Positions 2,348-60,527 of a stretch of DNA of 64,000 nt are shown piece by piece. A model generated the notes under the pieces. It was not told the origin of the DNA. It saw nothing but the letters and a program-made list of their open reading frames with translations, and made no database searches. How positions within the stretch are numbered: position 1 is the stretch's first letter; every line of letters begins with the position of its first letter. The stretch is from Candidatus Harrisonbacteria bacterium (GTDB lineage Bacteria; Patescibacteriota; Minisyncoccia; UBA6257; UBA11618): NCBI GenBank assembly GCA_016867415.1, contig VGJO01000001.1, positions 80,052 through 144,051 on the forward strand, in the 5' to 3' direction. The position numbers were made by a program, and so were the translations under genes.

Positions 2348-2607
2348 ACAATTACCTTCGATTGTATCAACTATCCCCTCCATCATCAAATAAGGATTTT
2401 TCTCTGGCATTACGAAGTTCATAAGATGCCCTCCTCCTCGCGCAGAATTTTTGTCCCTATGACGAGGAGAAAGCAAGTATTGCGAGGAGGCATACATAAT
2501 CGGTATGTTGACGAGCAAAAGGAGCTTTCGACAATGTCAGAGGGAAAAAAGACAAGCGCTTAAAAAAACCAAAAGTAAAAGTTATTTTTTGATTGAGTTA
2601 ATTAAGC

Positions 2608-4350: not shown

Positions 4351-4454
4351 TATTGTTTTTATAATTTTTTATTTTTTGTAATATTTTTTTACTTTTTATT
4401 TCTAATGATGTTCATTAAGAATTTTTCTCCGAAGCCGCTAGAAATGTGGTATTC

Positions 4455-4586
4455 GGAAAATTCTTGAGGATTTTTCATCGAGTCCGAGGCGCTTTCTCTT
4501 TTGCGACTAAGGTGTACATAAGGAGTACTCCGCGGGAGAAAAAGAGGAAGGAACAAAGGAATCGATGAAAAAGACCAAGAATTTTG
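4455..4586 (+). repeat. tRNA-adjacent variant of the dispersed structured repeat family
   Basis: Shares aggatttttc-gag, gagtactc palindrome and gggagaaaaa...aaaagaccaa blocks with the copy at 14703-14837 and with the main family. Confidence 0.55.
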
Positions 4587-4669
4587 TGCCCCCAAGAGGA
4601 CTTGAACCTCTACAGGATTTCTCCCACAAGTACCTGAAACTTGCGCGTCTGCCATTTCGCCATGGGGGC
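4587..4669 (-). tRNA. tRNA-Leu (anticodon CAG), type II long variable arm, CCA not encoded
   Basis: Manual fold: acceptor GCCCCCA/TGGGGGC, 3-bp D stem, anticodon stem CAAGT/ACTTG with loop TTCAGGT, long variable arm, T stem AGAGG/CCTCT with TTCAAGT loop. Confidence 0.85.
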
Positions 4670-7035: not shown

Positions 7036-7156
7036 AGCGAAGTAGTTTTGAGCTTAGTTTCGTTCTTCTTTTTGAAAGTAAACTAAGAGCTACTAGGAAA
7101 GTCTATGAAGATTTTCCGGAGAAAAAAATAATGAAAATAAGGCAAAAGCATGAGCG
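7036..7156 (+). repeat. copy of dispersed structured intergenic repeat (divergent copy)
   Basis: agcgaagtagttttgag...ggagaaaaaaataatgaaaat...aaaagcatgagcg aligns with the family consensus. Confidence 0.55.
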
Positions 7157-7447
7157 CTACTCAAGTAATCTTGCAACACGCTCTAATTCTTGCTCAACTA
7201 AAGAACTATCATAATCCCCACTATGTACTGACGCCCCCTCATAGCTTGGTCGCTTCTGATCCAGGTGAAGAGAAAGAAAAAGTTTCCCTTCGGCCACCCG
7301 CGTATACATATGAAACTTCGGATACTCCATTCTGGAGAGTCGTCGCACGAAGCTCGTCTCCGCCCCTTTCTGCCTGTCATAGGCATACCCCGCCCGCCGC
7401 ATAAACACCTGCAAATTTTCTCGAAAACCCTCCACCATCTTTTTCAT
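7157..7447 (-). CDS. hypothetical protein
   Basis: 96-aa ORF with non-repetitive composition, in tandem with gpmI. No recognisable motif. Confidence 0.35.
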   Translation of the reverse strand: MKKMVEGFRENLQVFMRRAGYAYDRQKGAETSFVRRLSRMEYPKFHMYTRVAEGKLFLSLHLDQKRPSYEGASVHSGDYDSSLVEQELERVARLLE

Positions 7448-9217: not shown

Positions 9218-9329
9218 TTTACTCTTGACTACCTACTATCTTCTTAAACCGAGTCATTACTTCTATTATAGTTTCTATTATATTATGTAGTAAGGAAGGC
9301 TTGATTTCACTAATACCCAATAAAAAGCA

Positions 9330-9412
9330 CAGGATTTTTCGAGGAAATTTTGTTTTTTCTTGTGAGTAAGCGCCGGAGCATACTAAAAATAAGCTCGTAG
9401 ACACCTAATACT
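9330..9412 (+). repeat. copy (5'-truncated subtype) of dispersed structured repeat
   Basis: caggatttttcgagga...gcgccggagcatactaaaaataagctcgtagac aligns with the 22118-22253 copy. Confidence 0.5.
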
Positions 9413-9540
9413 CTCAATTCTCTAAGGGCTATAGATCCTAGGTATTCTCCGGGAAATAAAAAAATAGAAAGTTATCGAAAAAGACCAGCTCTTAATTGAT
9501 AGAAAAAATCGTTAATATCAAATGTCTATTTTTAACTACT

Positions 9541-11096: not shown

Positions 11097-11227
11097 TTGC
11101 GCTCTCCACGCGAAGTAATCTTAGATAGAGTCTACGATTTATTTTTGAGGAAAGGCCTGGAGCATACTAAGAGCTGGGCATATGAGGACTTTCTGGAGAA
11201 AAAACGGGAAAATTCGCCAAAAAGAAA
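11097..11227 (+). repeat. copy of dispersed structured intergenic repeat
   Basis: cacgcgaagtaatcttag...tacgatttattttt-gagga...ggagcatactaag...ggagaaaaaacgggaaaattcgccaaaaag. Confidence 0.6.
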
Positions 11228-11232
11228 AGCTT

Positions 11233-14702: not shown

Positions 14703-14837
14703 GTAAATTTCTGAGGATTTTTTTCCGAAGGGTTAGGCGTCTTTGAGCATTACGACCAAGATGTACAAAGGAGTACTTTGCGGGAGAAAACAGAAAAGGC
14801 AACAACGCCATTCGAAAAAAAAGACCAAAAAGATTAG
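14703..14837 (+). repeat. tRNA-adjacent variant of the dispersed structured repeat family
   Basis: Near-collinear with 4455-4586 (tgaggattttt...aaggagtact..gcgggagaaaa...aaaagaccaaaaag), immediately abutting the tRNA-Arg 3' end. Confidence 0.55.
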
Positions 14838-15701: not shown

Positions 15702-15795
15702 AAGCGAAGTTATTTTGAGCTTAGTCCTTATCTAGATTCAGCATTTCGATAGCGCAGAAAAAATGAAGAAAATTCACCAAAATACAAACCCATAA
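15702..15795 (+). repeat. short/divergent copy of dispersed structured repeat
   Basis: aaagcgaagttattttgagcttagt...gcgcagaaaaaatgaagaaaattcaccaaaa. Same 5' end as the 7036 copy. Confidence 0.45.
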
Positions 15796-22013: not shown

Positions 22014-22117
22014 ATCTCGCCGCAGCTTTTCATAAAAGTGAATCCAAACGTATTTCTGTACTTAATTACCAAAAAATGTTTTAATCCAAAAAAATAAAAA
22101 TTTTTATCGGTGACTTA

Positions 22118-22253
22118 CGCCACGAAAGCGCAGGATTTTTGAGAAGAGTTTGGATTTTCTTTGTGAGCAGCGAACGGAGCATACTAGAACTTGAGTATGT
22201 GAGTACGAGACGCAGCAAAAAAATCAAGATCTTCTAAAAAATACAAGCTTATT
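22118..22253 (+). repeat. copy of dispersed structured intergenic repeat, ending 4 nt before the cysteine desulfurase start
   Basis: cgccacgaaagcgcaggatttttgag...gaacggagcatactagaacttgagtatgtgagtacgag...caaaaaaatcaag...acaagctt. Confidence 0.6.
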
Positions 22254-22256
22254 AAT

Positions 22257-23489
22257 ATGGAAAAGAGAATCTATCTAGACTACGCCTCCTCCACCCCCCT
22301 CGACCCCCAAGTGTTGTCTGCCATGCAGCCTTATTTTTATAAGCTCTTCGGCAATCCCGGCTCTACCCACCGTGAAGGCCAAATCGCCTTCGCCGCCCTT
22401 GCTGAAGCACGCGAGATGATCTCTCTCGCTCTTGGCGCCGAGTGGAAAAACACCCTCTTTCTTCCCTCCGCGACCGAAGCCAATAATTTCATCCTCCGTG
22501 GCGCTCTATCGGTCTGGGGAAAGTCTCATCCTGGCATAATTCCCGAATATATCATTTCTCCCCTTGAGCACCCCTCGCTCATTGCTACTGCTAAGGATCT
22601 TGCGAGGGAAGGAAAAATTATTCTTCATTTTCTTAAAGTTACTGAAGCCGGTATTGTGGATTTTACCTCGCTCTCCCCCCTCCTTTCTCCTCGCACCTGC
22701 CTCATCGCTGTCCAAAGCGCCAACAGCGAGCTTGGTACCCTCCAGCCTATTCAAGAAATCGCCACTCTCATATCTTCTTATAAAGAATCTAAAAAAAATA
22801 ATAGTCATTCCGGACTTAGCACACCTCGCTCTAAGCGGGATCCGGAATCTATAAAAAATAATTCTTACCCGCTTTTTCACATCGACGCGGTCCAGTCTTT
22901 CCAATATTTCCCCATCACCCTTGCCGAATCCGGCGCGGATTCTATTATCATCTCTTCGCATAAGCTCTATGGTCCCAAAGGCGCTGCCGCGCTTTCTCTC
23001 AAAAATTCTTCTCTCTCCTCTCCTCTTCTTTTTGGCGACACTCGGGAATCCGGCCTTCGCTCCGGTACAGAAAATGTTCCATCTATAGTCGGTTTTGGTA
23101 AAGCCGTTGAACTTGCGGAAAAAAATCGGGCTAAGGAATCAAAAAGAATAAAAATTCTCCGAGATTTCCTTTGGGAAGGCCTTGCAAAAATCTATCCTCA
23201 TATAAAACTGAATGGAGACTTAGAACGCCGCCTGCCACATAATCTAAGCGTCTATTTTCCCGGCACCCCTTCAACCGATTTTATGATTGAGCTTGATATG
23301 CAAGGTATTGCCGTCTCCGCCGGCACTGCCTGCTCCGCTCGCGCTCTTACTCCGTCTCCTGTCCTTGAGATCCTTTATCCCGATTCCGACCGTCCCTATT
23401 CTTCCCTCCGCTTCACTCTTGGCCGACCAACCAAAAAATCCGACCTCGTAAGCGTCCTCAAAATCCTCAAAAACCGCAGGCCGAAATAA
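22257..23489 (+). CDS. cysteine desulfurase (class V aminotransferase, IscS/NifS family) with an internal low-complexity insertion
   Basis: N-terminal YLDYASSTP, SSHKLYGPKG (PLP-Lys), GTACSAR near the C-terminus. Confidence 0.8.
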   Translation: MEKRIYLDYASSTPLDPQVLSAMQPYFYKLFGNPGSTHREGQIAFAALAEAREMISLALGAEWKNTLFLPSATEANNFILRGALSVWGKSHPGIIPEYIISPLEHPSLIATAKDLAREGKIILHFLKVTEAGIVDFTSLSPLLSPRTCLIAVQSANSELGTLQPIQEIATLISSYKESKKNNSHSGLSTPRSKRDPESIKNNSYPLFHIDAVQSFQYFPITLAESGADSIIISSHKLYGPKGAAALSLKNSSLSSPLLFGDTRESGLRSGTENVPSIVGFGKAVELAEKNRAKESKRIKILRDFLWEGLAKIYPHIKLNGDLERRLPHNLSVYFPGTPSTDFMIELDMQGIAVSAGTACSARALTPSPVLEILYPDSDRPYSSLRFTLGRPTKKSDLVSVLKILKNRRPK

Positions 23490-23566
23490 TTTACTGTTTT
23501 TTTCTATTTGGCCGAAGGCCACGTGAGAAATTATGCAATCATAATTTATTTTGCGTCATAAAAAAT

Positions 23567-23590
23567 CCCCCACTCCGTACGGAGTGGGGG
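23567..23590 (-). terminator. hairpin with U-tract only on the minus strand
   Basis: Perfect palindrome cccccactccgtacggagtggggg. A-runs on the + strand on both sides, so the T-run follows it only when read on the minus strand. Confidence 0.4.
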
Positions 23591-24054
23591 AAAAAAGAAG
23601 TCAGAGAATAATAAGCCACTTTATCAAACATTATTATTTCTCTGGTCAAAGAAGAAAGCGCAGAAAAACCCTCCTAATTTTCACCTGATTCTCTTTCCAC
23701 GCTCAAAAAAGAAAGGTAAGGAAGAGGCGGAGTATTCTCTCACCCTTTGATATTTCCTTACCTTAATTTTAAAGAAGAGAGTGAAGAATTGTCCATTTTT
23801 TTCAATCCCAGCATCCTCCACTCTCAAATGCAAAGTTTTCAATGAATAACTATTATATACCATATAAATATATAGGAGTCAAAAAAATAAAAATCAATAA
23901 TGTTAATATATATGTATAAGCTAGATTTAAGAAGATTTTATTAAAAAATACTCGCTCTGCAAAAGCGCATAATTTTTGGACGAGTCTCCACTGGCAATTA
24001 GCTCTCTTAAACTAAAAAATAAAAGAATTAGTAAAAAAGAACTAAAATGAGCTA

Positions 24055-24170
24055 GATCAGCGAGGCTCCCCATTTCTTTTCGAGGAGCTACCGGAGCATA
24101 CTAAGGGAAGTCTGTAAGGAGATACCGCAGGAAAAAACGGGAAAATTCGCCAAAAAGACAAGCTTTTCAC
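24055..24170 (+). repeat. copy of dispersed structured intergenic repeat (5'-short)
   Basis: atttcttttcgaggagctaccggagcatactaagggaagtctgtaagg...ggaaaaaacgggaaaattcgccaaaaagacaagctt. Confidence 0.55.
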
Positions 24171-24442
24171 ATGAAGACAAAACCCACGCGCCCTTTTTTA
24201 TATTTCTAATATTTGAAGCCGAGATAAAAAATATACAGTTTGTAAAAATATAAATAATAAAGATCTAGTAATTCGTTTAAATGCAGAGAATGAAGTAAGA
24301 GAAAAGTTATTCTGCGAACCAGAAGCATCAATAAATACCAAGCCCTGTTACCCAACCCCGATTCGATTAACTAATCGAAAAAGAAAAGACAGAAAATCAT
24401 TTTCCCCTGTCTTTTCTTAAGTGATAAAACCAATTCCCTTCA

Positions 24443-24471
24443 TTGACTTTTGATATAAATTTTGCTAATGT
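24443..24471 (+). promoter_or_regulatory. sigma70-type promoter (TTGACT-17-TAATGT) upstream of clpB leader
   Basis: TTGACT 24443-24448, 17-nt spacer, TAATGT 24466-24471. The predicted transcript would carry the 24604-24723 repeat as a 5' leader. Confidence 0.45.
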
Positions 24472-24603
24472 ACATATACATTCAGACCTGAAAGTTTTTG
24501 AAGAAATGGACAAAAAAAGTAATACTAAATTAGTCTCTTAGAATTTTTCTTTTACATCTTATTTTACGTAAAAGCATAGGATATAAAGTCTTAGCACAAG
24601 CGT

Positions 24604-24723
24604 AAGCGAAGTAATTTTGGAGGGTATTTCGATTTTTCTTGAGAGTACGGGGCGGAGCATGCTAGGAAAGTCTGTGAGCACCGAACGGAACAAAAAATCG
24701 AAATGCACCCAAAAGTACGAGCG
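24604..24723 (+). repeat. copy of dispersed structured intergenic repeat, ending 10 nt before clpB ATG
   Basis: agcgaagtaattttggagggtatttcgattttt...ggagcatgctagg...caaaaaatcgaaatgcacccaaaagtacgagcg, with a compensatory tttcgattt/aaatcgaaa pair. Confidence 0.6.
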
Positions 24724-24733
24724 TAAAACACTA

Positions 24734-27391
24734 ATGAAACAGTTTAATAGGTTCACAATTAAAGCCCAAGAAGCCCTCCAAAATTCCCAAGACCTCGCCT
24801 CTCTTCGCAATCACGGCGAGTTTAAAGCCGTTCATCTTCTTCATAGTTTAATTCAGGATTCTCAATCCCTCGTTCAGCCAATGCTTGTGAAAGTCAGCGT
24901 TAATCTTGATCAACTTTTCGAAGAGCTTGAAGCTGAATTGGGTCGCATGCCCAAAATTTTTTCTGGTGGCAATACTGGCCAACTCTATCTCTCCCAAGAA
25001 ATTATTCAGATTCTCGATCGGGCCGGTAAAATCGCTCTCGCTCAAAAAGATGAGTTTGTGAGCTGCGAGCACCTTCTTTTGAGTATCCTCGATACCCGTT
25101 CGAGCGCGAAGGAAATCTTAGAGTCTTTCGGAGTGAAGCGCGATCCGCTTATTCGCGTTTTAGAAAAACTTCGCGGCTCTAATCGAGTCGTCGACGAGAC
25201 TCCTGAGAGTAAATTTCAGGTACTTGAAAAGTATGGCATCAATCTTACCGAGCGGGCCAAACAAGGAAAGCTTGATCCGGTCATCGGTCGCGACGATGAA
25301 GTTCGGCGCTTGATTCAAGTGCTTTCCCGCCGCACGAAAAATAATCCAGTCTTAATCGGCGAACCTGGTGTGGGAAAGACTGCGATAATCGAAGGCTTAG
25401 CCCAACGCATTATCTCCGGAGATGTTCCTGAAACACTTCGCGCGAAAGAAATTATTTCGCTGGATCTTGGCGCTCTTATTGCTGGCACGAAATTTCGCGG
25501 TGAATTTGAAGATCGGCTTAAGGCTTTTATGAAGGAGATTAAAAACAGCGATGGCCGCTTCATTCTTTTTATCGATGAGCTTCACATGATCGTCGGTGCC
25601 GGTGCCGCCGAAGGTGCCATCGACGCTTCCAATCTTTTAAAACCTTCTCTTGCTCGAGGTGAACTTCGCGCTATTGGTGCTACTACACTCCGGGAATATC
25701 AGAAACATATTGAAAAAGACCCTGCCCTGGAGCGCCGCTTCCAGCCTATCTTGGTAGAAGAGCCTTCTATTGAGGATGCGCTCGCTATTCTTCGTGGTCT
25801 TAAAGAAAAATATGAAATTCATCATGGTATTCGGATCAGTGATGAAGCCTTAGTTGCCTCGGTCAATCTTTCTGCTCGCTACATTACTGATCGTTTTCTC
25901 CCTGATAAGGCCGTAGATCTGATGGATGAAGCCGCTGCCGCTCGGCGTCTTGAATCCGAAAGTATTCCTCGTGAAATAGATCGCTTCCGTCGGGATATTA
26001 TGCGTCTCGAGATCGAGCAAAAAGCCTTGGAAAAAGAGCAGGAGGAAGTCTCCGGTACTGGTAAAGTAAAAGTAAAAAAGCGATTAGAAGAGATTAAGAG
26101 TGAGCTTTCCGCTCTTAAGGAAAAAAATGATGGCCTCTCTGCTAAGTGGCATAAGGAAAAGATCGCCTTTGAAAATCTTCACAAGCTTCGCCGGCGCGAG
26201 GATGATCTTCGCCGCGAAGCCGAAATTGCCGAACGTGATGGTAATCTCACTCGGGTCGCCGAGATCCTTTATGGCGAGCTTCCCGCCGCTCAAAAAGAAT
26301 ACAAAGATTTTGAAAAGAAATACTTCTCAAAAGGGAAGGCTACTAGTACCTCTGAAAAATTTCTCAAAGACGCTGTTGATGAGGAAGATGTGGCTGCGGT
26401 TGTTTCTCGTTGGACCGGAATCCCCGTTTCTCGCATGCTTGAGTCCGAAGCCGTTAAGCTCACTCGCCTTGAGGACGTCCTAAGTAAGCGCGTAGTGGGT
26501 CAGGAGACTGCTGTGACAGCCGTCGCTAATGCCCTCCGCCGGTCTCGAGCAGGCCTTGCTGATATGAGTCGTCCCCTTGGATCCTTTATGTTCTTAGGAC
26601 CTACCGGTGTTGGCAAGACGGAGCTTGCCAAAGCTTTGGCCGAATTCATGTTTAATGACGAAAAAGCCTTGATCCGCATTGATATGTCTGAATACATGGA
26701 GCGTCACGCCGTCTCTCGCCTTATTGGTTCGCCTCCTGGGTATGTTGGTCATGATGAAGGAGGGCAGCTCACTGAGATTATTCGTCATCGTCCCTATAGC
26801 ATCATTCTTTTCGATGAGATTGAGAAAGCTCATCCTGAAGTCTTTAATATTCTCTTGCAGGCTCTTGATAATGGCCGTCTCACCGACAGTAAGGGTAAGA
26901 CCGTCAATCTTAAAAACTGCGTAATTATTTTGACTAGCAACGTTGGGAGTCATCATTTTAAGGAGATTTCCCGCCTTGGCTTCAAGACCGAAGAAGGGGA
27001 AAATCTCGAAGCTAAGGAAAAAGATTTTCGTTCTCGCGTCATGGACGCTTTGAAGGATCAATTCCGTCCCGAGTTCTTAAATCGGCTCGACGAAATAATC
27101 ACCTTCAACGCCTTAAATCGCAATGTGATCGAAAAAATAGTTGAGATTCAACTCGAGAAGGTAAAAGAGCGGCTTGCCGAGCGAAGTATCCGGCTTAAGA
27201 TTGATGATTCTGCCAAAAAGTATATTGTCGAGCATGGTTTTGATCCTGATTATGGTGTCCGTCCGATTAAGCGCTTGATTCAAAAAGTGATTCTTGATCC
27301 GATGGCCGACAAGATTATAAAAGGCGAATTGAAAGACGGCGATGAAGCGAAGGTTAGCTTTAAGAAGTCCTTACTTACTGTTAGCGTGTAA
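24734..27391 (+). CDS. clpB: chaperone ClpB (AAA+ disaggregase)
   Basis: N-domain [15 protein letters not shown], two Walker A boxes ([16 protein letters not shown]), middle coiled-coil. The ORF-track start at 24617 is a read-through of the repeat. Confidence 0.88.
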
Positions 27392-28897: not shown

Positions 28898-28980
28898 TAA
28901 AAAGTTAAGATTCTTACTCTATTTAGTAAAAATGTATGAACGTCGGCTTTCTAGGAAATTATAAAACTTCGCATTACACC

Positions 28981-29158
28981 ACGCGAAGTAATTTTGAGTC
29001 GAGTTTACGATTTATTTCTGAGGACAAGCCCGGGAGCACTACTAAGAAAAAGGTATGTCGAAGGTATGGAGTACTCTCCGTACCGGAGATCTCGAGTGCT
29101 CTCGAGGTGAAGGACTTACCGGAAGAAAAAATCGCAAAATTGGCCAAAAGTACGAGCG
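28981..29158 (+). repeat. long variant (with ~55-nt internal insertion) of dispersed structured repeat
   Basis: acgcgaagtaattttgagtcgagtttacgattt...gggagcactactaag + insertion ggtatggagtactctccgtacc / ctcgagtgctctcgag + ggaagaaaaaatcgcaaaattggccaaaagtacgagcg. Confidence 0.6.
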
Positions 29159-29163
29159 CCTTA

Positions 29164-31035
29164 TCAGATGGATAGGTCGGGTCGGAGTAATTGCAACTTA
29201 CTCCTCAATCTTCCCAATTCCTTCTGATCCCCCTCCTCCATCGCAATCCGTGCCTGAATCTGGATAAATTCAATGCGAGTAGGCGAATAATCTTCCCCTG
29301 TTTTAGCAAGTGCTTTTGCTTTCTCACTATATTGCGGATTTTTTGTCGCTTCAAATGCCGCCATGTAGAGCAAGTTGTATATATAGTGATTTTTTATACC
29401 TGGATAGATCGTGGGCTCATACCATTTGTCCGCCATCCCTAGTACTCGGTTCATGAAGTTAGGATCTCGAGGAAGCGCCGGGTTTTCCTTTTGAGCCATT
29501 TGAATCGCATTTTGCAAAAAGAGGAAGAGACTACTTTCTAGCTCTGACTGCCCTACTACCGACTTATATTGCAATGCCTTCTCATAGTCATTCAGCGCTT
29601 GGTCTAAATTTTTCGCATTATAGACCGCCGATGTGATAAGGAGGACATTTTTTCGATAAATAGTGTAAGTGAGACCAAATCCAGTAAGGAGTAATAAGAC
29701 AATGACTGCCTGCCCTCCTGCTCGCGTAAAAGTTAGTTGTTTTCTTTGCGTCATAAGCTTAGAAAGAGCTGTTTCCTCAAGAAAGCCGGCGGTGTTTGCT
29801 GTGTAAAAAGCCAGGAAGAGAAAAAGCATGAGATACGTTGGCAAGATGGCAAAGATAGTCAGTCCCTGGATGATAAACATAAGCGGCATGATAAGAAAAA
29901 TAATCCGCCATATTCCCGAAGGAATCTTTTTTAAGCTCATATAGTAGGCGATAAAGATTCCAATATAAGCAAGAAGGAGAAGGATTCCCCCATTCATTAA
30001 TTCGTCAATAAAGATATTATGAGCCCGATCAAACCATGACTCTCTTCCAAAGTGATTGGGATTATAATACATATCAAAGACCGAAGGGAAACTCTCCGCT
30101 CCATACCCCAAAAGTGGTCGTTCTAAAAATCCTTGGTACGCTGATCCCCAGGTCCAAAAACGAGTATTAAATGCTTCTAGAATATTTCCTCCCTTTTCTG
30201 CTGAAACAAGAAAAAGTGAGCCAAAAGTAATAAAGCTAATAAGAAGGACTAAAAACGCATAGAAAAAAGTCTTTGCTTTTTTATTAAGCTTCTCGAAGTA
30301 ATAGAGATGAAGGTGGGGGATGAGAAGCAAGAGTCCGACTACGCCGCCAATTCCCACTGCCCCCAAAGCCGCTGTCGTCTTTGATCGGTAAAAAACGAAG
30401 ATCGCCCAAAGAGTGTACCAGGCAAGCATAGTCCAGGTTTTCACCGATTTTGTATTCTGACTCATCCAATAAAGGTAAAAGAAGATAAATATCATATAGC
30501 CTCCAAGATACGAGGCATTTCCTAATGTTCCTGCTACCTGTGAGGCACTTCCAATGAAAAAACTAGGTGCTATACCGAAAGCCTGCGCGGTCGCATAGAG
30601 CATCACATAGAGAGTCTCAATAAGGAGAAATGAGATGAGCCATTTCCAATGCTGTTTCGTTGTATAGGTGGAGATAAGAAGCACGTAAAAAGTCACATAG
30701 TGAATGATTTGAAATCCCCCTTCCGCCCGTTCAAAGTTAGACCAAAAAGAAAAACCTGGGTTGATTCCAGTAAGTGAAGTAAGGACATAAAAAAATGCAT
30801 ATGCAAGAACTGCGATCGAGACCGGATGCCTCAACCGTTCTTTGATGACTGTCCAGTACCCCGGATTATAAATGAGATAACTCAAGAGGCAAAAAAGGGC
30901 GATTTCCACCATCGATCGGAAATAGAGCGCCTTTCCGGTAATAAAGGGGAAGTACAAACCTCGGGTAACAAGGAGAAATGAAAGAAGTGCCGCCCCGGTA
31001 AAAATCCGCGCCGCTCTGATAAAAAAAGTATTCAT
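29164..31035 (-). CDS. Wzy_C (O-antigen ligase/PglL-like) polytopic membrane protein with C-terminal TPR-like domain
   Basis: About 11 TM segments, YNPNHFGRESWFDRAHNIFIDELMNGGILLLLAY loop motif typical of the Wzy_C family. C-terminal soluble helical repeats. Confidence 0.7.
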   Translation of the reverse strand: MNTFFIRAARIFTGAALLSFLLVTRGLYFPFITGKALYFRSMVEIALFCLLSYLIYNPGYWTVIKERLRHPVSIAVLAYAFFYVLTSLTGINPGFSFWSNFERAEGGFQIIHYVTFYVLLISTYTTKQHWKWLISFLLIETLYVMLYATAQAFGIAPSFFIGSASQVAGTLGNASYLGGYMIFIFFYLYWMSQNTKSVKTWTMLAWYTLWAIFVFYRSKTTAALGAVGIGGVVGLLLLIPHLHLYYFEKLNKKAKTFFYAFLVLLISFITFGSLFLVSAEKGGNILEAFNTRFWTWGSAYQGFLERPLLGYGAESFPSVFDMYYNPNHFGRESWFDRAHNIFIDELMNGGILLLLAYIGIFIAYYMSLKKIPSGIWRIIFLIMPLMFIIQGLTIFAILPTYLMLFLFLAFYTANTAGFLEETALSKLMTQRKQLTFTRAGGQAVIVLLLLTGFGLTYTIYRKNVLLITSAVYNAKNLDQALNDYEKALQYKSVVGQSELESSLFLFLQNAIQMAQKENPALPRDPNFMNRVLGMADKWYEPTIYPGIKNHYIYNLLYMAAFEATKNPQYSEKAKALAKTGEDYSPTRIEFIQIQARIAMEEGDQKELGRLRSKLQLLRPDLSI

Positions 31036-35904: not shown

Positions 35905-35934
35905 AAAAATCCCCCTCCCGGGGGATTTTTGTTT
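35905..35934 (+). terminator. intrinsic terminator
   Basis: aaaaatccccc tccc gggggattttt: 7-bp stem with A/T flanks. Confidence 0.75.
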
Positions 35935-36021
35935 TATAACAGTAAGTCCTGTACTTAATCAAAAAAAAATGTTTTAATCTAATATTCCTAATACTTAATT
36001 TTTAAAGATTTTGCCCGTCGC

Positions 36022-36197
36022 CACGCGAAGTAATTTTGGATGGAGTTTGTGATTTCTTTCCGAGGAGCCGCCGCAACGTATAAATAAAAGGTATGTCGAA
36101 GGTACTTAGTACTCTAATACCGGAGATCTCGAGTACTCTCGAGGTGAAGAAGCTAGCACAGAAAAAACTGCGAAAATTCGCCAAAAAACAAGCTTAT
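36022..36197 (+). repeat. long variant (with internal insertion) of dispersed structured repeat, ending 3 nt before GT4 start
   Basis: ccacgcgaagtaattttggatggagtttgtgatttc... + insertion ggtacttagtactctaatacc / ctcgagtactctcgag + ...gaaaaaactgcgaaaattcgccaaaaaacaagctt. Confidence 0.6.
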
Positions 36198-36200
36198 ACC

Positions 36201-37385
36201 ATGAATAAAAAGATGAGTAAAAAAGTTTTATTAATAATTACGCAACCCACCTGGGGCGGCGCCCAACGCCATGTCTTTGATCTCGCTCTTGGCCTAAAAG
36301 AGGAAGGTTTCAAGGTGGTGGTAGGGACAGGGAAACCCAAGTCTTCTGCTAAAGAAGACTCTCTTCTCATCGAAAAGTTAAGAGAAAAAGAAATCACCAC
36401 TCAAATCTTTTCTCATCTCACCCGTCCTATTAGACCCCTTTCAGACATTCGCGCTATTTTCGAAATCTTTTCTTTCCTCCAAAAAAATAAAATAAATATT
36501 CTCCATCTCCATAGTTCGAAGGCCGGGGTGGTGGGAGCGGTGGCCGGCTTTCTTGCTCGCACCCCTCGCCGTCTTTTTACCGCTCACGGCTTAGTGCTGA
36601 ATGAGCCTCTTCCCCGGTATCTTCATGGTCTCTATTACATCCTTGAATGGATTAGCTTCCGCCTCTCGCATCACATCATTACCGTCTCTGATTTCGACCG
36701 TCATATTGCGCTAAAAAGTCGTCTCACTTCTCCTCTTAAAATCTCCACAATCTGGAACGGCATTGATCAAAAAGTATTTACCTCTTCACTCTTACCTAAA
36801 GAGACTGCTCGAAGAAAAATTCTCTCTCTCTTTCCCCACTCCATAGATGAAAAAAACTTCATTATCGGAACCATCGCTCATTTCTACAAGAATAAGGGCC
36901 TCTCTTTTTTAGTTTCCGCGGCCGAGATCGTGGTAAAAAGTTTCCCGCAAGCCCACTTTGTCATTATAGGGAGTGAAGGTTCGGAGCGCGCTTCTATTGA
37001 GCAAAAAATAAAAGAGTGCTCACTTGAAAAAAACATTCACTTGCTAGGTTTCATAGAAAATCCCGAATCATTATTAAATAGTTTTGACCTCTATGTTTCC
37101 TCATCTCTCAAAGAAGGCCTTCCATACTCCTTAATCTCAGCTCTTTCTGCGGAAGTACCAATAGTGGCTACTCAGGTTGGTGGCTGTTCTGAAATTATTA
37201 TTAATGAAGAAAATGGACTCCTTGTCCCTCCTGCCGACGCACCTGTTCTTGCTTCTGCTATTAGCCGCTTCCTAATCTCTCCTCACCTAAAAGAAAAAAC
37301 AAGAGAAAATAATAAAGTCCGCTCCTCGCTCTTCTCCCTTTTTGAAATGATTGATAAAACTATCGCAATCTACGATAATCGCTAG
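36201..37385 (+). CDS. glycosyltransferase family 4 (GT-B)
   Basis: EGLPYSLISALSAEVPIVATQVGGCSEII..ENGLLV (E-x7-E motif region). The ORF-track N-extension from 36093 is translated repeat sequence. Confidence 0.8.
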   Translation: MNKKMSKKVLLIITQPTWGGAQRHVFDLALGLKEEGFKVVVGTGKPKSSAKEDSLLIEKLREKEITTQIFSHLTRPIRPLSDIRAIFEIFSFLQKNKINILHLHSSKAGVVGAVAGFLARTPRRLFTAHGLVLNEPLPRYLHGLYYILEWISFRLSHHIITVSDFDRHIALKSRLTSPLKISTIWNGIDQKVFTSSLLPKETARRKILSLFPHSIDEKNFIIGTIAHFYKNKGLSFLVSAAEIVVKSFPQAHFVIIGSEGSERASIEQKIKECSLEKNIHLLGFIENPESLLNSFDLYVSSSLKEGLPYSLISALSAEVPIVATQVGGCSEIIINEENGLLVPPADAPVLASAISRFLISPHLKEKTRENNKVRSSLFSLFEMIDKTIAIYDNR

Positions 37386-44025: not shown

Positions 44026-44148
44026 AAGCGAAGTAATTTTGGATGGAGTTTGCGATTTCTTTTCGAGGACAAGCCCGGAGCATACTGGGCTCAAGTATGT
44101 GAGGACTTACCGGAGAAAAAAATCGCAAAATTCGCCAAAAGTACGAGC
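44026..44148 (+). repeat. canonical copy of dispersed structured intergenic repeat, ending 11 nt before ATP-grasp gene ATG
   Basis: gcgaagtaattttggatggagtttgcgatttcttttcgaggacaagcccggagcatact gggctca agtatgtgaggacttaccggagaaaaaaatcgcaaaattcgccaaaagtacgagc. Confidence 0.65.
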
Positions 44149-44159
44149 ATAAATAATAT

Positions 44160-47715: not shown

Positions 47716-47747
47716 AAATATCATAAGTAGGTAATCGTCCTCAGTTC

Positions 47748-47870
47748 CGCGAAGTAATTTTGGATGGAGTTTGCGATTTCTTTTCGAGGACAAGCCCGGA
47801 GCATACTAAAGGAAGTATGTGAGGACTTACCGGAGAAAAAAATCGCAAAATCCGCCAAAAGTACGAGCGC
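47748..47870 (+). repeat. canonical copy of dispersed structured intergenic repeat in a convergent intergenic region
   Basis: Near-identical to 44026-44148 except the central loop (aaagga vs gggctca) and 2 substitutions. Confidence 0.65.
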
Positions 47871-51829: not shown

Positions 51830-52651
51830 ATGTTTAATAAAGACTTATTTCTTTTGCAAAAAGTTACAAACACAGACGTCATTCATACGCCTTTTCCTTA
51901 TTTTGTAATAAAAAATGCATTACCCGAAAATATTGTTTCTGAACTCGTAAAAAAATTTCCTTCAACTGGAAAAATAACCAAAGGACAGAGGTACGGGAGT
52001 AATGAACGTTTTGATTATACGATAACTGATGCTGCTTCTGATTCAAGCCTCGATTCTCTATGGATAGATTTCTTAGATACGAATAGTTCAGATGTTTTTT
52101 ATGAAAAAATATTTGAGTTATTCGATAAAGATATTGCTCAGCTGTATCCCGAATTAAGTTTCCGAAAAAATAATAATTATTTAAAAAAAGGAATTCGTTA
52201 TCAAGATCCGCTTTGGGAAGACTCTATTAATTTTGATTGCCATATCTCAATAAATACCCCAGTAACAGAAAAACCTACCTCGGTAAGAAAAGTGCATGTT
52301 GATGATCCTAAAAAACTTTTCGGAGGTCTTTGGTATTTGAGAGATGATGACGATCAAAGCACGGGAGGTGATCTGGAGCTCTACGAATACATAAGAACTC
52401 CTAAAATGTTTGGGCAGCAAGTCTATGAAAACAGAGTGAAAAAAATAAAGACCGTGCCATACGAGAAAAATCTTCTTATTATATTTTTGAATTCTTTTAA
52501 TTCTCTGCACGGAGTCACTATAAGGGGAAAAACAGAAAAAACAAGAAAATTTGTAAACGTGGTGGCCGAATTAAAAAATTCTCTTTTTGATATAAATAGT
52601 TTTCAAGAAAATTTTATAGAAAGAAAAATAAGGCAAATGATAAGCAGTTAA
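51830..52651 (+). CDS. hypothetical protein, possibly 2OG/Fe(II) oxygenase-like
   Basis: HVDD (HxD) and a downstream LHGV..R. Otherwise no clear motif. Confidence 0.35.
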   Translation: MFNKDLFLLQKVTNTDVIHTPFPYFVIKNALPENIVSELVKKFPSTGKITKGQRYGSNERFDYTITDAASDSSLDSLWIDFLDTNSSDVFYEKIFELFDKDIAQLYPELSFRKNNNYLKKGIRYQDPLWEDSINFDCHISINTPVTEKPTSVRKVHVDDPKKLFGGLWYLRDDDDQSTGGDLELYEYIRTPKMFGQQVYENRVKKIKTVPYEKNLLIIFLNSFNSLHGVTIRGKTEKTRKFVNVVAELKNSLFDINSFQENFIERKIRQMISS

Positions 52652-52672
52652 TAAAATAAAGATTAGCTTGAT

Positions 52673-53458
52673 ATGTTTCAAAAAATAACGAAAACTATTT
52701 ATCGAATTCTAATCCCATCTTTTATAGAAAGGGGAGCTGATCCGGAAAAAGAGAGCTTAAGAAAATTTATAGAAACGGTAGCGGCAAAAGAAATAAGAGC
52801 GAAAGAGCGGATGTTAGATGCCGGAGCTGGGTTTAAAAGATATGAGGGTTTTTTTAAGCACGCAATATATGAATCGACTGATTTTGAAGATATTTTCAAT
52901 AAAGATTTTAAAAATAAACACACATTCGTTTGTAGTCTAGATAATATCCCAGTGGCTGATAATACATACGATGCAATTATAAATAATCAGGTTCTGGAGC
53001 ACGTAAAGTATCCTAAAAAAGTTTTAGAAGAGCTATTTCGAATACTAAAGCCTGGAGGGAAGATATTTGTTACGGTCCCTCAAATCTCTCATGTCCACGG
53101 AGCGCCTTACAATTTTTTCTTTTTTACTAATTTCGGCTTAGAACTTCTTCTAAAAGAGACAGGTTTCAGAATCATTTCTATTAAACCTCGAGGAGGTATC
53201 TTTTTTGTGATTGCTAAATGGATGAATGTCTTTTCCGATTATTTGTTCTATCAGCACGTCTTTAATGGATGGAAGAGAAATATCTCTTTCAAACCTGAAA
53301 AAACAGGCAGGGTAAAATTTTATCTTTTATTCCCTTTTTATTTTATTTCTAGAATAGTGATTGGCGAGTGGGGCGCTTATTGCGTCTCAAAGTTAGATTT
53401 TCTAGATAAGCAGAAAAACTTCACTCTTGGTTATTCTGTTTATTGTATAAAGCCTTAA
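52673..53458 (+). CDS. class I SAM-dependent methyltransferase
   Basis: MLDAGAGFKRY (motif I), LKPGGKIFVTVP (post-II). Confidence 0.65.
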   Translation: MFQKITKTIYRILIPSFIERGADPEKESLRKFIETVAAKEIRAKERMLDAGAGFKRYEGFFKHAIYESTDFEDIFNKDFKNKHTFVCSLDNIPVADNTYDAIINNQVLEHVKYPKKVLEELFRILKPGGKIFVTVPQISHVHGAPYNFFFFTNFGLELLLKETGFRIISIKPRGGIFFVIAKWMNVFSDYLFYQHVFNGWKRNISFKPEKTGRVKFYLLFPFYFISRIVIGEWGAYCVSKLDFLDKQKNFTLGYSVYCIKP

Positions 53459-53465
53459 TCTCTCG

Positions 53466-54722
53466 TTATATTTTCCTGATAAATAAAATAAGAAGTACCC
53501 AACCCGCCAACTTTGAAAAGATCCGGGCAAAAATTAAGCCGGGAATCTGGAAGAAATAAACCCCAATAACAAGAAAAAGTATTTTTATGACACTGCTGTA
53601 AGTAGTGAGTTTGTATTTATCTAATATTCTCCTTTGGGAATCAAAAAATGAAATAGGTACTACGGAAGAGAGGAGTATTGTTACCGCATATAATTTAGAG
53701 TAATAAATTGAATTCTGATAAAGAGGAAAGAAAAAGCGGATAAGAAAATCTGCGGAATATAGATAGAAAAGAAAAATAGTGATAAGGGGAATAAAAAAGA
53801 GCGTTTCTTTTTTAAGAAGGTTTGATTTCACGTCTCTCCTGTCCCGAGCAGCGAATCTCGGAATAAGGAGAGACATGAGTTTTTTTGCTACCGATTGGAA
53901 GTAATTTGGAAAAAGAGTGGTAAAGTTATAAATAGCTAACTGAGTTGCCCCTAAAAATTGAAATACAAGCACCCCATCAATTTTGTCAGCTATTGCAGCA
54001 ATCCCATTAATAAAAGTGAGGTGAAAGGAAAGATCTTGGGATTCTTGAGTTTCTTTCGTTGTAACGGGAGAAATATTTTGTGTTATAAGTCTTTTTCTTG
54101 TAAGAGCGTAGCCGATAAAAGAGATGATTACTCTTGGGGCAAAAAAAGCCGTAATGAGAAAAAAGATGCTCTGTGAAAAAAAGATGGCAGAAGAAAGAGT
54201 AAATGTTCCAAAAAGATTTCCATAGAATTGATAAAGAGTAAGGAGTCTAAAATTCTTTTCTCCATTAAGAGTCGCAGAAAAAACCTCAAAGATTTTAAGA
54301 AGGTAGTTAGCAAGCGCGATTATGAGTAAACTGAGTCCAAAATCAATATTTTTGTTGTAGAAGTAATAAATTGATGCTCCTATGGTAATTATGAGAAAAG
54401 GAATATTCCATTTGACCGCCTGATTATAAGCGCTGAAGAAAACCTCTTTCTTGCCTCGAGCTACCGATCGCACCACTGCTGGAGAAAGCCCAGTGAGTGA
54501 AAAGGCTAAAAAAATTCCTAATAATGACTGAATGTATTTATATTGGCCAAAAATTTCTGGAGGAAGTTTGTTGCCTAGAAAATATGTAGTGATAAAACTT
54601 AGAAGAGTGGCGGTAATGATGTCAAAAGCTATCCAAAATCCCCCTTTCGCTAAGTAAAGAGCGTCAAATTTAAATAACCTTCCTAGCGTAGTAAGAAGGG
54701 AATGAGTCTGCCGTTTAATCAT
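53466..54722 (-). CDS. polysaccharide biosynthesis protein / Wzx-like flippase (MOP superfamily)
   Basis: 418 aa, about 12 TM segments, typical size/topology of O-unit flippases. Confidence 0.55.
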   Translation of the reverse strand: MIKRQTHSLLTTLGRLFKFDALYLAKGGFWIAFDIITATLLSFITTYFLGNKLPPEIFGQYKYIQSLLGIFLAFSLTGLSPAVVRSVARGKKEVFFSAYNQAVKWNIPFLIITIGASIYYFYNKNIDFGLSLLIIALANYLLKIFEVFSATLNGEKNFRLLTLYQFYGNLFGTFTLSSAIFFSQSIFFLITAFFAPRVIISFIGYALTRKRLITQNISPVTTKETQESQDLSFHLTFINGIAAIADKIDGVLVFQFLGATQLAIYNFTTLFPNYFQSVAKKLMSLLIPRFAARDRRDVKSNLLKKETLFFIPLITIFLFYLYSADFLIRFFFPLYQNSIYYSKLYAVTILLSSVVPISFFDSQRRILDKYKLTTYSSVIKILFLVIGVYFFQIPGLIFARIFSKLAGWVLLILFIRKI

Positions 54723-55590: not shown

Positions 55591-55610
55591 AATACCTATG
55601 TTTTTTCACT

Positions 55611-59824: not shown

Positions 59825-59839
59825 AATAAAGAAGATAGC

Positions 59840-60469
59840 ATGAATCAAAACCGAGGTATTTTTGATGGGATTCTTATCGAGAAAAGCCTTCTTGAACTTA
59901 AAGAGCTTTGGCAAAAGCAAGTAACGCAACTTGTTCAAGAAGAAAAAAACATAACTTCTCTTCCTGATAAGCTCCATGTTCAATTAACTAATTATGTAAG
60001 TCAAAAAACCTATGAAGAATATAGATCTCGTGCTGATGTTGCGTGTGCAGATTTGGTGATTGTTACTAAGAGAGATGACGGTCACTGGGGCGTACTCTTA
60101 AGTAAACGTGGATCCGGAAAGTCTTTTGCTAGAAGTTGGTGGATATATGGAGGATCTATCCCTTCGTATTCCTCAATTCCTGATTTTATTGCCAAGCGAA
60201 GTGAAGAAGAATCCGGAGTAAAGGCTACTCCTGTCCTCCTTCTCGGCGTCTATCGGACCTGCGCCCCTGATTTTGTAGGCTCTTCAGTCAACCTTTGCTA
60301 TCTCGGAATCGCTTCCTGGAGCGAAGTCGAGAGAGTAGCAGGTGTTGATAAGGATCATGATTGCATTGGATGTTTCACTGCAGGCGATATTGAGGAATTG
60401 AAGCGAAATGAGGAGGTTCATTGGTACCCTCTTCACGTTGCTTCTCGTGCGCTTGAGATCGTTTCTTAA
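59840..60469 (+). CDS. hypothetical protein (weak Nudix-like box)
   Basis: IPDFIAKRSEEESGV loosely resembles RExxEExG. Otherwise unknown. Confidence 0.4.
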   Translation: MNQNRGIFDGILIEKSLLELKELWQKQVTQLVQEEKNITSLPDKLHVQLTNYVSQKTYEEYRSRADVACADLVIVTKRDDGHWGVLLSKRGSGKSFARSWWIYGGSIPSYSSIPDFIAKRSEEESGVKATPVLLLGVYRTCAPDFVGSSVNLCYLGIASWSEVERVAGVDKDHDCIGCFTAGDIEELKRNEEVHWYPLHVASRALEIVS

Positions 60470-60500
60470 TCCTCATTTCGAAGAAAAAAGGTCCTTAACT

Positions 60501-60527
60501 AGGAGGCGATGTCCGCCTCCTTTTTTT
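60501..60527 (+). terminator. intrinsic terminator
   Basis: Stem aggaggcg/cgcctcct, 5-nt loop, T7. Confidence 0.75.

What the first reader, a model, noticed from the sequence alone, without database searches (positions are those of the whole stretch)
36022..36197. Insertion-bearing subtype of the repeat with two extra hairpins that covary between copies
Copies at 28981-29158 and 36022-36197 carry a ~55-nt insertion after GGAGCA..ACTAAG. It contains hairpin 1, ggtatGGAGtactCTCCgtacc in one copy versus ggtactTAGtactCTAAtacc in the other; the stem changes GGAG/CTCC to TAG/CTAA while pairing is kept. It also contains hairpin 2, ctcgag-t(g/a)ct-ctcgag. The gagtactc core also occurs in the tRNA-adjacent variants. 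Compensatory substitutions in an inserted module argue for selection on RNA/DNA secondary structure rather than on sequence. They also explain why the ORF track reads artificial 'proteins' (28936-29175 and the 36093 N-extension) across these elements.
Basis: seen in the sequence. Interest (0 to 1): 0.6.

Follow-up and report, generated by a model that had tools for sequence, protein, structure and literature searches.

The report
Hairpin repeat with duplicated tip module
Two copies of a roughly 123-base hairpin-forming repeat, scattered between the genes of one Candidatus Harrisonbacteria genome, carry the same 50-base extra piece at their tip; the piece looks like a local duplication of the repeat's own sequence, so this is an undescribed but fairly ordinary kind of bacterial repeat, not a proven RNA module.

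Summary
The sequence observation holds. Copies at 28982-29159 and 36024-36195 carry a 50/49-nt insertion at the same internal site, and it contains the two quoted hairpins.

The host element is a ~123-nt imperfect palindrome (a rod hairpin). There are 10 strong copies in the window and 15 in ~105 kb of this MAG. Every copy on a contig lies on the same DNA strand, and the rod shows strong covariation (23 of 45 pairs). It matches no Rfam family and was found in no other genome. About 175 kb of syntenic relatives lack it.

The claim of selection on the inserted hairpins is weak:
- Only two copies exist, and only two adjacent pairs change on both sides; a third pair is lost.
- Hairpin 1 drops from -13.4 to -4.4 kcal/mol, no better than one-arm chimeras.
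- Hairpin 2 is out-competed in full-length folds of copy A, and both hairpins have low probability in copy B.

The insertion repeats the element's own landmarks (AAGGTATG twice, TACCGGA twice), so it is an internal duplication. It is 98% identical between two otherwise mosaic copies whose arms are only 60-75% identical, which points to recent exchange of the tip.

Best reading: a new MITE/REPIN/ERIC-like repeat family with a tip-duplication subtype. The single-strand polarity and the way the 3' end abuts the next gene remain unexplained.

The parts
28982..29159 (+). Repeat copy A (insertion-bearing); lies between a + gene (stop at 28835) and the stop codon of a convergent - gene (29164)
   Evidence: Covariance-model hits of 90-96 bits; 95% of consensus rod pairs formed; MFE -64.4 kcal/mol, z = -4.5
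29059..29108 (+). 50-nt insertion in copy A, between the 3' arm of the apical hairpin (GGTATGT) and GAAGGAC
   Evidence: Alignment to 13 copies; coordinates; direct repeats AAGGTATG x2 and TACCGGA x2
29063..29084 (+). Hairpin 1 of copy A: 9 pairs, loop UACU, -13.4 kcal/mol
   Evidence: Pair probability 1.0 in the full-length fold; energy
29091..29106 (+). Hairpin 2 of copy A: CUCGAG/CUCGAG, loop UGCU
   Evidence: Forms in the isolated insertion; probability ~0 in the full-length fold, where it competes with 29031-29040
36024..36195 (+). Repeat copy B (insertion-bearing); after a terminator-like hairpin at 35910-35924 and 5 nt before the ATG of a GT4 glycosyltransferase (36201)
   Evidence: Covariance-model hits of 58-63 bits; only 73% of rod pairs formed; mosaic arms; z = -1.0; terminator scan
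36097..36145 (+). 49-nt insertion in copy B
36101..36121 (+). Hairpin 1 of copy B: 8 pairs plus a bulged C, -4.4 kcal/mol
36128..36143 (+). Hairpin 2 of copy B: loop UACU
47748..47870 (+). Best basic copy of the repeat (100% of rod pairs); its 3' end touches the stop codon of a convergent - gene (47871)
44027..44150 (+). Basic copy that fills the spacer between two + genes (6 nt after a stop codon, 9 nt before an ATG)
24605..24724 (+). Basic copy in the ClpB 5' leader, 9 nt before the ATG and downstream of the conserved ClpB promoter at 24444-24472
24050..24165 (+). Copy with a truncated or divergent 5' arm
22127..22250 (+). Copy of a second subfamily, 6 nt before the aminotransferase ATG
11109..11232 (+). 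Mosaic copy between the RNase Y stop codon and a terminator; the convergent HU gene follows
9326..9491 (+). Copy with a different ~45-nt apical expansion, 4 nt before the RNase Y start
7036..7157 (+). Copy lying antisense between two - strand genes
   Evidence: gene calls
15703..15791 (+). Degenerate copy
2439..2559 (+). Weak copy or separate subfamily; good rod (-44.3 kcal/mol)
4452..4589 (+). tRNA-adjacent subfamily copy; abuts the 3' end of tRNA-Leu (- strand)
14712..14828 (+). tRNA-adjacent subfamily copy, 8 nt from the 3' end of tRNA-Arg (- strand)

Best explanation
The finding is a subtype of a genome-specific family of ~123-nt imperfect-palindrome (rod hairpin) intergenic repeats in a Candidatus Harrisonbacteria (Patescibacteria) MAG. 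It is a non-coding, MITE/REPIN/ERIC-like repeat that multiplied in this lineage.

Shown:
- The rod structure is maintained across diverged copies by many double changes.
- Every copy on a contig lies on the same DNA strand, whatever the direction of the neighbouring genes.
- The copies sit in spacers that are far shorter and lack the element in syntenic relatives.

Inferred:
- The hairpin is what the multiplication mechanism recognises, most plausibly on single-stranded DNA at the replication fork (HUH/Y1-transposase style). That would also explain the polarity and the lack of target-site duplications.
- Copies that lie in transcripts then act passively as 5' or 3' stem-loops.

The extra ~50 nt arose by local tandem duplication of the element's own 3' descending strand (AAGGTATG ... 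GAG(G/T)ACT ... TACCGGA). A few added bases made the duplicate self-complementary (hairpin 1), and its tip was duplicated again (hairpin 2). The module is nearly identical in two otherwise old and mosaic copies, so it was exchanged recently between copies by recombination or gene conversion at the apex, which is the length-variable part of the family.

The complementary GG/CC to TT/AA difference in hairpin 1 is real. It is more likely a by-product of how palindromic DNA mutates, or of a different module allele, than proof of selection on an RNA.
For: Family and structure:
- 15 strong copies (E < 1e-6) lie in ~105 kb of one genome.
- 85.8% of cells are paired against 75.6% in shuffles; 23 of 45 pairs change on both sides; the covariation score is 0.295 against 0.134 in shuffles (0 of 500 reach it) and 0.02-0.10 for slid partners.

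Lineage restriction and filled versus empty sites:
- No covariance-model hit in ~175 kb of the closest syntenic relatives, bar one marginal 18.6-bit match (E 0.02) in L028.
- The aminotransferase-ClpB spacer is 57-247 nt there and 1244 nt here, with two copies. The ClpB promoter is conserved upstream of the copy.
- The GreA, Alr and YchF upstream spacers are 59, 17 and 49 nt in a relative and 200, 211 and 194 nt here, each holding a copy.

Decay and mosaicism typical of repeats:
- Pairing ranges from 100% down to 73%.
- Copies 36024 and 11109 combine a 5' arm of one subfamily with a 3' arm of another.

Polarity: strong copies are 11/11, 3/3 and 1/1 on one strand per contig. This includes copies antisense to both neighbours (7036; L001:4298).

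No target-site duplication. No Rfam family.

Insertion as an internal duplication:
- AAGGTATG occurs twice (spacing 11) and TACCGGA twice (spacing 36) in copy A; AGTACTCT occurs twice in copy B.
- The insertion aligns locally to the basic element's own apical and descending strand, p = 0.01.

Tip exchange: the arms of A and B are 73% and 65% identical, but the insertion is 54/55 identical outside the hairpin-1 inner stem (Fisher p = 3e-6).

The apex is a hot spot: 4 of 15 strong copies carry three different apical expansions, and one carries a deletion.

Weak compensation: -13.4 (A), -4.4 (B), and -5.3 and -4.5 for the one-arm chimeras.

Literature: compensatory changes across the hairpin are also common in REPINs (PMC3116915) and in bcr1 repeats (PMC3184786).
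Against: - No transposase of any kind appears among the annotated genes of the ~105 kb examined.
- No strain-level presence/absence polymorphism was seen. All assemblies are about 99.6-99.9% identical.
- There is no conserved target motif at the left end.
- The replication direction is unknown, so the replication link is an inference.
- The tight abutment of the 3' end to the next gene boundary (median 6 nt against 90 nt on the 5' side, Wilcoxon p = 0.001) is not predicted by simple selfish spread. It could mean a host function.
- Two conserved G.U wobbles on the + strand and a mild excess of G.U over A.C cells (51 against 33, p = 0.06) lean towards one functional strand.
- The high conservation of the module could reflect selection rather than recent exchange.
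Confidence: 0.5

Rival explanations
1. One reading: the element is a functional structured RNA (a leader, a 3' stabiliser or a small RNA). The inserted module adds two hairpins that are maintained by selection on RNA structure, for example as a protein-binding platform with G-UACU-C loops.
For: - At least some copies must be transcribed in sense. Copy 44027 fills an intercistronic spacer, and copy 24605 lies between the conserved ClpB promoter and the ATG.
- Eight strong copies end 4-13 nt before a start codon in an organism that shows no Shine-Dalgarno motifs.
- The rod covaries strongly.
- The module is 98% conserved outside the one stem segment that changes on both arms.
- The loops are conserved.
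Against: - The element is absent from all syntenic relatives.
- The neighbouring genes are unrelated in function.
- Four copies lie antisense to both neighbouring genes.
- Many copies decay.
- Copy B's hairpin 1 gains nothing energetically from the 'compensation'.
- Hairpin 2 is not predicted in full-length copy A, and neither hairpin dominates in copy B.
- There are only two sequences.
- The G.U versus A.C asymmetry is not significant.
Confidence: 0.17
2. The 50-nt module is itself a small mobile element. It inserted independently into the same target site (GA(A)GG) of two different host copies and duplicated that target.
For: - GAAGG flanks the module on both sides in copy A; copy B has GAAGG and GAAGA.
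- The module is much more similar between A and B than their arms are.
Against: - No free-standing or differently hosted copy was found in ~129 kb of loci from this genome. Only a marginal 19-bit match turned up at 23709-23788.
- Nothing was found in the viral, phage or plasmid collections.
- The module has no terminal inverted repeats of its own.
- Its sequence is derived from the host element, which fits duplication better than foreign insertion.
Confidence: 0.1
3. The repeat is a host-serving DNA element whose polarity follows replication or chromosome organisation, for example a binding or loading site on one strand. The apical module is neutral length variation.
For: - Strict one-strand orientation on three contigs, independent of gene direction.
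- GC skew has a uniform sign over the 1-52 kb stretch that holds the copies.
- Regular spacing of roughly one copy per 5-7 kb.
Against: - A 123-nt rod is unlike known polar motifs, which are 8-30 nt (my own knowledge).
- The element is absent from close relatives that share the same gene order.
- Copies decay and recombine.
Confidence: 0.1
4. The elements encode short proteins (the ORFs 28936..29175 and the 36093 N-terminal extension are real).
For: The ORFs exist mechanically.
Against: - The 1-nt indel between A and B inside hairpin 1 changes the frame.
- Copies differ by many indels.
- The Pfam match of the GT4 protein begins at residue 18 of the version that starts at ATG 36201.
Confidence: 0.01

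Closest known systems
ERIC (enterobacterial repetitive intergenic consensus) elements
   Same: A ~127-bp imperfect palindrome in intergenic, often co-transcribed positions, listed as a MITE (PMC3184786). Size variants caused by insertions at fixed internal sites are described for ERIC (my own recollection of Sharp and Leach 1996 and Wilson and Sharp 2006; not checked here).
   Different: There is no sequence similarity. ERIC-type copies have TA flanks or target duplications (PMC3184786), and none was found here. I do not know ERIC to be confined to one strand. The host phylum is different.
REPINs / REP sequences mobilised by RAYT (Y1/HUH) transposases
   Same: Long hairpin made of two inverted halves. 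Conserved hairpin with common compensatory changes on either side (PMC3116915). No target-site duplication is expected. A single-stranded-DNA mechanism could give strand polarity (PMC6006769).
   Different: No RAYT gene was seen in the DNA available. There is no GTAG-type REP core. The arms here are ~60 nt of moderately conserved sequence, not two short REPs plus a spacer.
Correia / NEMIS elements of Neisseria
   Same: A 104-157-bp MITE (PMC3184786). It has long and short subtypes that differ by an internal ~50-bp segment, and it is co-transcribed and processed as a stem-loop (my own knowledge).
   Different: Correia elements have defined 26-bp terminal repeats and a TA duplication. Neither a target duplication nor a related IS was found here.
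bcr1 repeats of the Bacillus cereus group
   Same: About 155 bp, transcribed, with compensatory changes that keep a double-stranded structure; some copies lose the structure (PMC3184786).
   Different: bcr1 is flanked by 5-bp direct repeats. No such repeats are present here.
IS200/IS605-derived palindrome-associated elements
   Same: No target duplication. Hairpins are recognised on single-stranded DNA. Orientation is tied to the lagging-strand template (PMC6006769).
   Different: Those carry separate subterminal hairpins at each end and insert next to a fixed tetra- or pentanucleotide. Here the whole element is one hairpin and no fixed flank motif is seen.

Membership tests
MITE (classical, e.g. 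ERIC, Correia, RUP) | Short (under ~500 bp), non-coding, many dispersed intergenic copies | tested here: met
   123-178 nt. 15 strong copies in ~105 kb, all intergenic. Indels break every reading frame.
MITE (classical, e.g. ERIC, Correia, RUP) | Terminal inverted repeats | tested here: met
   The 5' and 3' halves pair along the whole length: 45 consensus pairs, 85.8% of cells paired.
MITE (classical, e.g. ERIC, Correia, RUP) | Target-site duplication flanking each copy | tested here: not met
   The longest flank direct repeat averages 3.86 nt, against 3.80 +/- 0.27 when flanks of different copies are paired. Only one copy (24605) has a 7-nt repeat.
MITE (classical, e.g. ERIC, Correia, RUP) | A related autonomous IS or transposase with the same ends in the genome | not testable with these tools
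   Only ~105 kb of the MAG could be fetched. No transposase appears among its annotated genes.
MITE (classical, e.g. ERIC, Correia, RUP) | Evidence of insertion: filled versus empty sites | tested here: inconclusive
   Distant syntenic relatives (ClpB 73-75% and YchF 63% amino-acid identity) have short, empty spacers at the same junctions. No polymorphism among the near-identical assemblies of this population.
REPIN-RAYT system | Hairpin formed by two inverted halves, with compensatory changes | tested here: met
   The feature is as described in PMC3116915.
REPIN-RAYT system | A single-copy RAYT (Y1 transposase) gene flanked by the repeats | not testable with these tools
None is present in the DNA examined.
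IS200/IS605-type single-strand transposition | Orientation linked to the direction of replication | tested here: inconclusive
   All copies on a contig share one strand and GC skew has one sign over 1-52 kb. No origin or terminus lies in the sampled DNA, so the predicted switch could not be seen.
IS200/IS605-type single-strand transposition | A fixed tetra- or pentanucleotide target next to one end | tested here: not met
   The left flanks show no conserved motif: at most 0.6 bit per column.
Any Rfam RNA family | Match to a curated covariance model | tested here: not met
   Only 4 tRNAs reach gathering score in the window. With permissive thresholds on two copies, only chance-level matches appear.
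Conserved cis-regulatory RNA (riboswitch or leader type) | Kept upstream of orthologous genes across species | tested here: not met
   Absent upstream of ClpB, the aminotransferase, GreA, Alr and YchF in relatives.

The most novel reading that the evidence does not exclude
The repeat is a domesticated, strand-polar structured element of an organism that shows no Shine-Dalgarno motifs. Its 3' foot is placed a fixed few nucleotides from gene boundaries because it acts in expression, for example as a processing or ribosome-standby stem in sense and a 3' stabiliser in antisense. The apical two-hairpin module would be an exchangeable functional domain, kept at 98% identity while the arms drift, whose hairpin-1 stem may vary only in a paired fashion.
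Probability: 0.12. Interest if true: 0.6.

Novelty: new member of a known kind. Interest (0 to 1): 0.3.

Why it matters
Patescibacteria (CPR) genomes are usually described as small and streamlined. A hairpin repeat present about once every 5-7 kb, which lengthens spacers from tens to hundreds of bases, sits inside the leaders of housekeeping genes (ClpB, RNase Y, GreA, YchF) and breaks short-read assemblies, is therefore worth knowing about for annotation and binning.

The strict one-strand orientation, if it follows replication, would make this a clean natural case of single-strand hairpin-mediated spread in a lineage with no described mobile repeats of this type.

For gene calling, the elements create false ORFs and false N-terminal extensions.

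The specific claim that the inserted hairpins covary adds little until more copies are seen.

Tried and rejected
- Rfam at gathering score and at permissive thresholds: no family.
- Exact-pattern scans of GTDB species genomes: nothing, then two hits that the covariance models did not confirm.
- Metagenome scan: 5 stretches. I first took these for relatives carrying the element. I retracted that when the protein accessions (MBM3281225, MBM3281366, MBM3281370, MBM3281647) showed they come from the same MAG as the window.
- Viral contigs, phage records and plasmid records: nothing.
- Search for more insertion-bearing copies by exact words and by a covariance model of the module: only the two known copies, plus a marginal match at 23709-23788 that folds differently.
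- Target-site duplications: none.
- A conserved promoter at a fixed distance upstream of the rod: not found. Only generic AT-rich sequence with scattered -10-like hexamers, and the consensus promoter scan found none near copies A and B.
- Intrinsic-terminator role of the rod: no U tract follows it.
- Coding potential: rejected because of the frame-shifting indel.
- Deciding the strand from G.U versus A.C cells: not significant.
- Homology between the module and the other apical expansions (9326; L004:420): none detectable.
- Literature search for such repeats in Patescibacteria/CPR: nothing relevant.

Full report
**What is there.** The two regions named in the finding align over their whole length. 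They belong to a repeat whose 5' core CACGCGAAGTAATTTTG occurs 8 times in the window with up to 3 mismatches, against 0.16 expected, always on the + strand. Aligning the copies shows a basic unit of about 123 nt. Both copies in question carry extra sequence at the same internal point: 29059-29108 (50 nt) and 36097-36145 (49 nt). The quoted hairpin sequences are correct. Hairpin 1 is at 29063-29084 and 36101-36121, and hairpin 2 is at 29091-29106 and 36128-36143.

**The host element.** Each basic copy folds into one long imperfect hairpin, for example -47.9 kcal/mol with z = -6.2 for 47744-47870. I built a covariance model from seven copies and refined it with the full rod structure.
- It finds 10 strong copies in the window: 7036, 9326, 11109, 22127, 24050, 24605, 28982, 36024, 44027 and 47748.
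- It also finds weaker or degenerate copies at 2439, 4452, 14712 and 15703.
- On 15 strong copies, 85.8% of cells pair (shuffles 75.6%) and 23 of 45 pairs change on both sides. The covariation score is 0.295, against 0.134 in shuffles (0 of 500 reach it) and 0.02-0.10 when partners are slid.
- The alignment was fitted to the structure, which inflates these numbers somewhat. Even so, whole subfamilies differ by blocks of compensated changes, for example GAUGGA/UCCGCC against GAAGA/UCUUC.
- The hairpin is therefore a maintained property. G.U cells outnumber A.C cells 51 to 33 (p = 0.06), so the data do not decide which strand, or whether RNA or DNA, matters.

**Whose genome, and how widespread.**
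- The flanking proteins are named Candidatus Harrisonbacteria by NCBI.
- The element matches no Rfam family.
- An exact-pattern scan of 185,579 species genomes gave nothing. A looser pattern gave two hits that the models did not confirm.
- A metagenome scan gave five stretches. One is the window itself. I first treated the others as relatives, but their proteins carry NCBI accessions MBM3281366, MBM3281370 and MBM3281647, next to MBM3281225 for the window's ClpB. They are other contigs of the same MAG.
- The family is therefore known from one genome only: 15 strong copies in about 105 kb sampled (window, L014, L022, L001/L004/L026, L002).
- The closest syntenic relatives available (ClpB 73-75% and YchF 63% amino-acid identity) were searched over about 175 kb and have none, apart from one marginal 18.6-bit match in L028 that I disregard.
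- At the same gene junctions their spacers are short. Aminotransferase to ClpB is 57-247 nt there and 1244 nt here. The spacers upstream of GreA, Alr and YchF are 59, 17 and 49 nt there and 200, 211 and 194 nt here, each holding a copy.
- The ClpB promoter (TTGACTTTTG, 17 nt, then a -10 box) is conserved with the relatives and lies upstream of copy 24605, so that copy sits in the ClpB leader.

**Position and polarity.**
- All copies on a contig share one strand: 11 strong and 5 weak on the window contig, 3 and 1 on the 209-kb contig, and 1 and 1 on the third.
- This does not follow transcription. Copy 7036 lies between two - strand genes and L001:4298 between two - strand ORFs. The weak copies 2439 and 4452 sit in the same - strand cluster.
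- GC skew keeps one sign over 1-52 kb.
- The 3' foot of the rod lies a median of 6 nt from the next gene boundary. That boundary is a start codon for + genes, and a stop codon or tRNA 3' end for - genes. The 5' foot is a median of 90 nt from the previous gene (Wilcoxon p = 0.001).
- I found no target-site duplication, no conserved flank motif or fixed promoter, and no transposase in the DNA examined.
- The organism shows no Shine-Dalgarno motif upstream of its genes, so a stem-loop a few bases before the ATG does not displace a ribosome-binding site.

**The insertion.**
- Origin: in copy A the landmarks of the basic element's apical and descending strand are each present twice. AAGGTATG occurs at 29050 and 29061, and TACCGGA at 29081 and 29117. 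The insertion aligns to the basic element's own AAGTATGTGAGGACTTACCGGAGA (p = 0.01 against shuffles). Hairpin 2 repeats the tip of hairpin 1 (AGTACTCT twice, 24 nt apart, in copy B). The insertion is therefore a local duplication that became self-complementary, not foreign DNA.
- History: the arms of A and B are only 73% (5') and 65% (3') identical, and they belong to different subfamilies. B's 5' arm is 90% identical to L001:540, and its 3' arm is closest to 24050. Like 11109, it is a mosaic whose arms no longer match, with 73% of pairs formed. Yet the insertion is 54/55 identical outside the inner stem of hairpin 1 (Fisher p = 3e-6). The module is thus young relative to its hosts, which fits recombination or gene conversion at the apex.
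- The apex is also where three other copies carry unrelated expansions or a deletion (9326, L004:420, L001:4298).

**Do the hairpins covary?**
- Six of the seven differences within the insertion fall in two facing 3-nt blocks of hairpin 1. UGG becomes CUU on the 5' arm, and CCG becomes AA with one base lost on the 3' arm. Two adjacent pairs go from G-C to U-A, and the U.G pair is lost, leaving a bulged C. That is non-random.
- But it comes from two sequences and perhaps two events.
- Energetically, hairpin 1 is -13.4 kcal/mol in A and -4.4 in B. Chimeras with only one arm changed reach -5.3 and -4.5, so the second change rescues nothing.
- RNAalifold prefers a different shared fold in which the differences are single-sided.
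- In full-length folds hairpin 1 is certain in A, but hairpin 2 has probability ~0 there. Its 3' half pairs with CGGGAGCACT at 29031-29040, and enforcing both hairpins costs 6 kcal/mol. In B the hairpin-1 inner stem and hairpin 2 reach 0.11-0.16.
- A covariance model of the module finds only A and B in ~129 kb of loci from this genome, some overlapping the window, plus a marginal match at 23709-23788 that folds otherwise.

**ORFs.** The ORFs 28936..29175 and 36093..37385 exist. The 1-nt indel in hairpin 1 puts A and B in different frames, and the Pfam match of the glycosyltransferase starts at residue 18 of the version beginning at ATG 36201.

**Interpretation.**
- The best-supported reading (confidence about 0.5) is a lineage-specific, non-coding palindromic repeat of the MITE/REPIN/ERIC kind, with a tip-duplication subtype.
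- Compensatory changes across such hairpins are reported for REPINs (PMC3116915) and bcr1 (PMC3184786), so they are not in themselves evidence of an RNA function.
- A single-stranded-DNA, hairpin-recognising mechanism like that of IS200/IS605 and RAYT (PMC6006769) would account for the hairpin constraint, the missing target duplications and the strand polarity. This step is inferred: no such enzyme and no origin or terminus were within reach.
- Membership of the classical MITE class fails on target duplication, so I file it as 'works like', not 'is'.
- The RNA-function reading (about 0.17) keeps some weight because several copies are certainly transcribed and because the abutment to gene boundaries is unexplained.

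**Verdict.** The inference of selection on the inserted hairpins is not established. The object is a new member of a known kind of bacterial repeat. The polarity and the one-sided abutment are more interesting than the insertion itself.

Noticed in passing
window 1-64000 (all repeat copies); L001, L002, L004, L014: Every copy of the repeat lies on the same DNA strand within a contig, including copies antisense to both neighbouring genes. The 3' foot lies a median of 6 nt from the next gene boundary, against 90 nt on the 5' side.
   Followed up: partly
window, upstream of ~45 start codons (e.g. 12118, 41913, 39609): No Shine-Dalgarno-like motif is visible upstream of genes. The upstream regions are AT-rich, often with a -10-like hexamer 5-10 nt before the ATG, which suggests many leaderless or short-leader mRNAs.
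   Followed up: no
window 22058-22086 and 35951-35979: A near-identical 29-nt block (GTACTTAATnAnnAAAAAATGTTTTAATC, containing a TGn-TTTAAT extended -10-like motif) lies 41-45 nt upstream of two repeat copies. Each block follows a terminator-like hairpin. There are only these two copies in the window.
   Followed up: partly
window 4452-4589 and 14712-14828: A diverged subfamily of the repeat (about 70% identical to each other) abuts the 3' ends of tRNA-Leu and tRNA-Arg, both on the opposite strand. In reverse orientation the copies could serve as tRNA terminators.
   Followed up: partly
window 23489-24734: An unusually long (1.24 kb) non-coding spacer before ClpB holds two repeat copies and other hairpins (e.g. 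23712-23768). Relatives have 57-247 nt here.
   Followed up: partly
window 52000-64000: GC content falls from ~0.44 to ~0.35 and GC skew changes sign. The genes are polysaccharide-synthesis enzymes, so this may be an acquired island.
   Followed up: no
window 28966-28989 (- strand): A terminator-like hairpin followed by a T run is formed by the first 8 nt of repeat copy A and its 5' flank. It is placed to terminate the convergent - strand gene after it reads through the repeat.
   Followed up: no
L005, L008, L009, L031-L033, L035: Short-read assemblies of this population end inside or just beyond repeat copies (at copy A, and in or just after copy 24050-24165). The repeat fragments assemblies.
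   Followed up: yes
window 2439-2559: A weak repeat copy overlaps the called start (2497) of the tRNA-synt_1b gene on the opposite strand, so that start may be mis-called.
   Followed up: no
window 11109-11232 and 36024-36195: These two copies combine a 5' arm of the main subfamily with a 3' arm of the 24050 type. Their middle helix no longer pairs, which is evidence of recombination between copies.
   Followed up: yes
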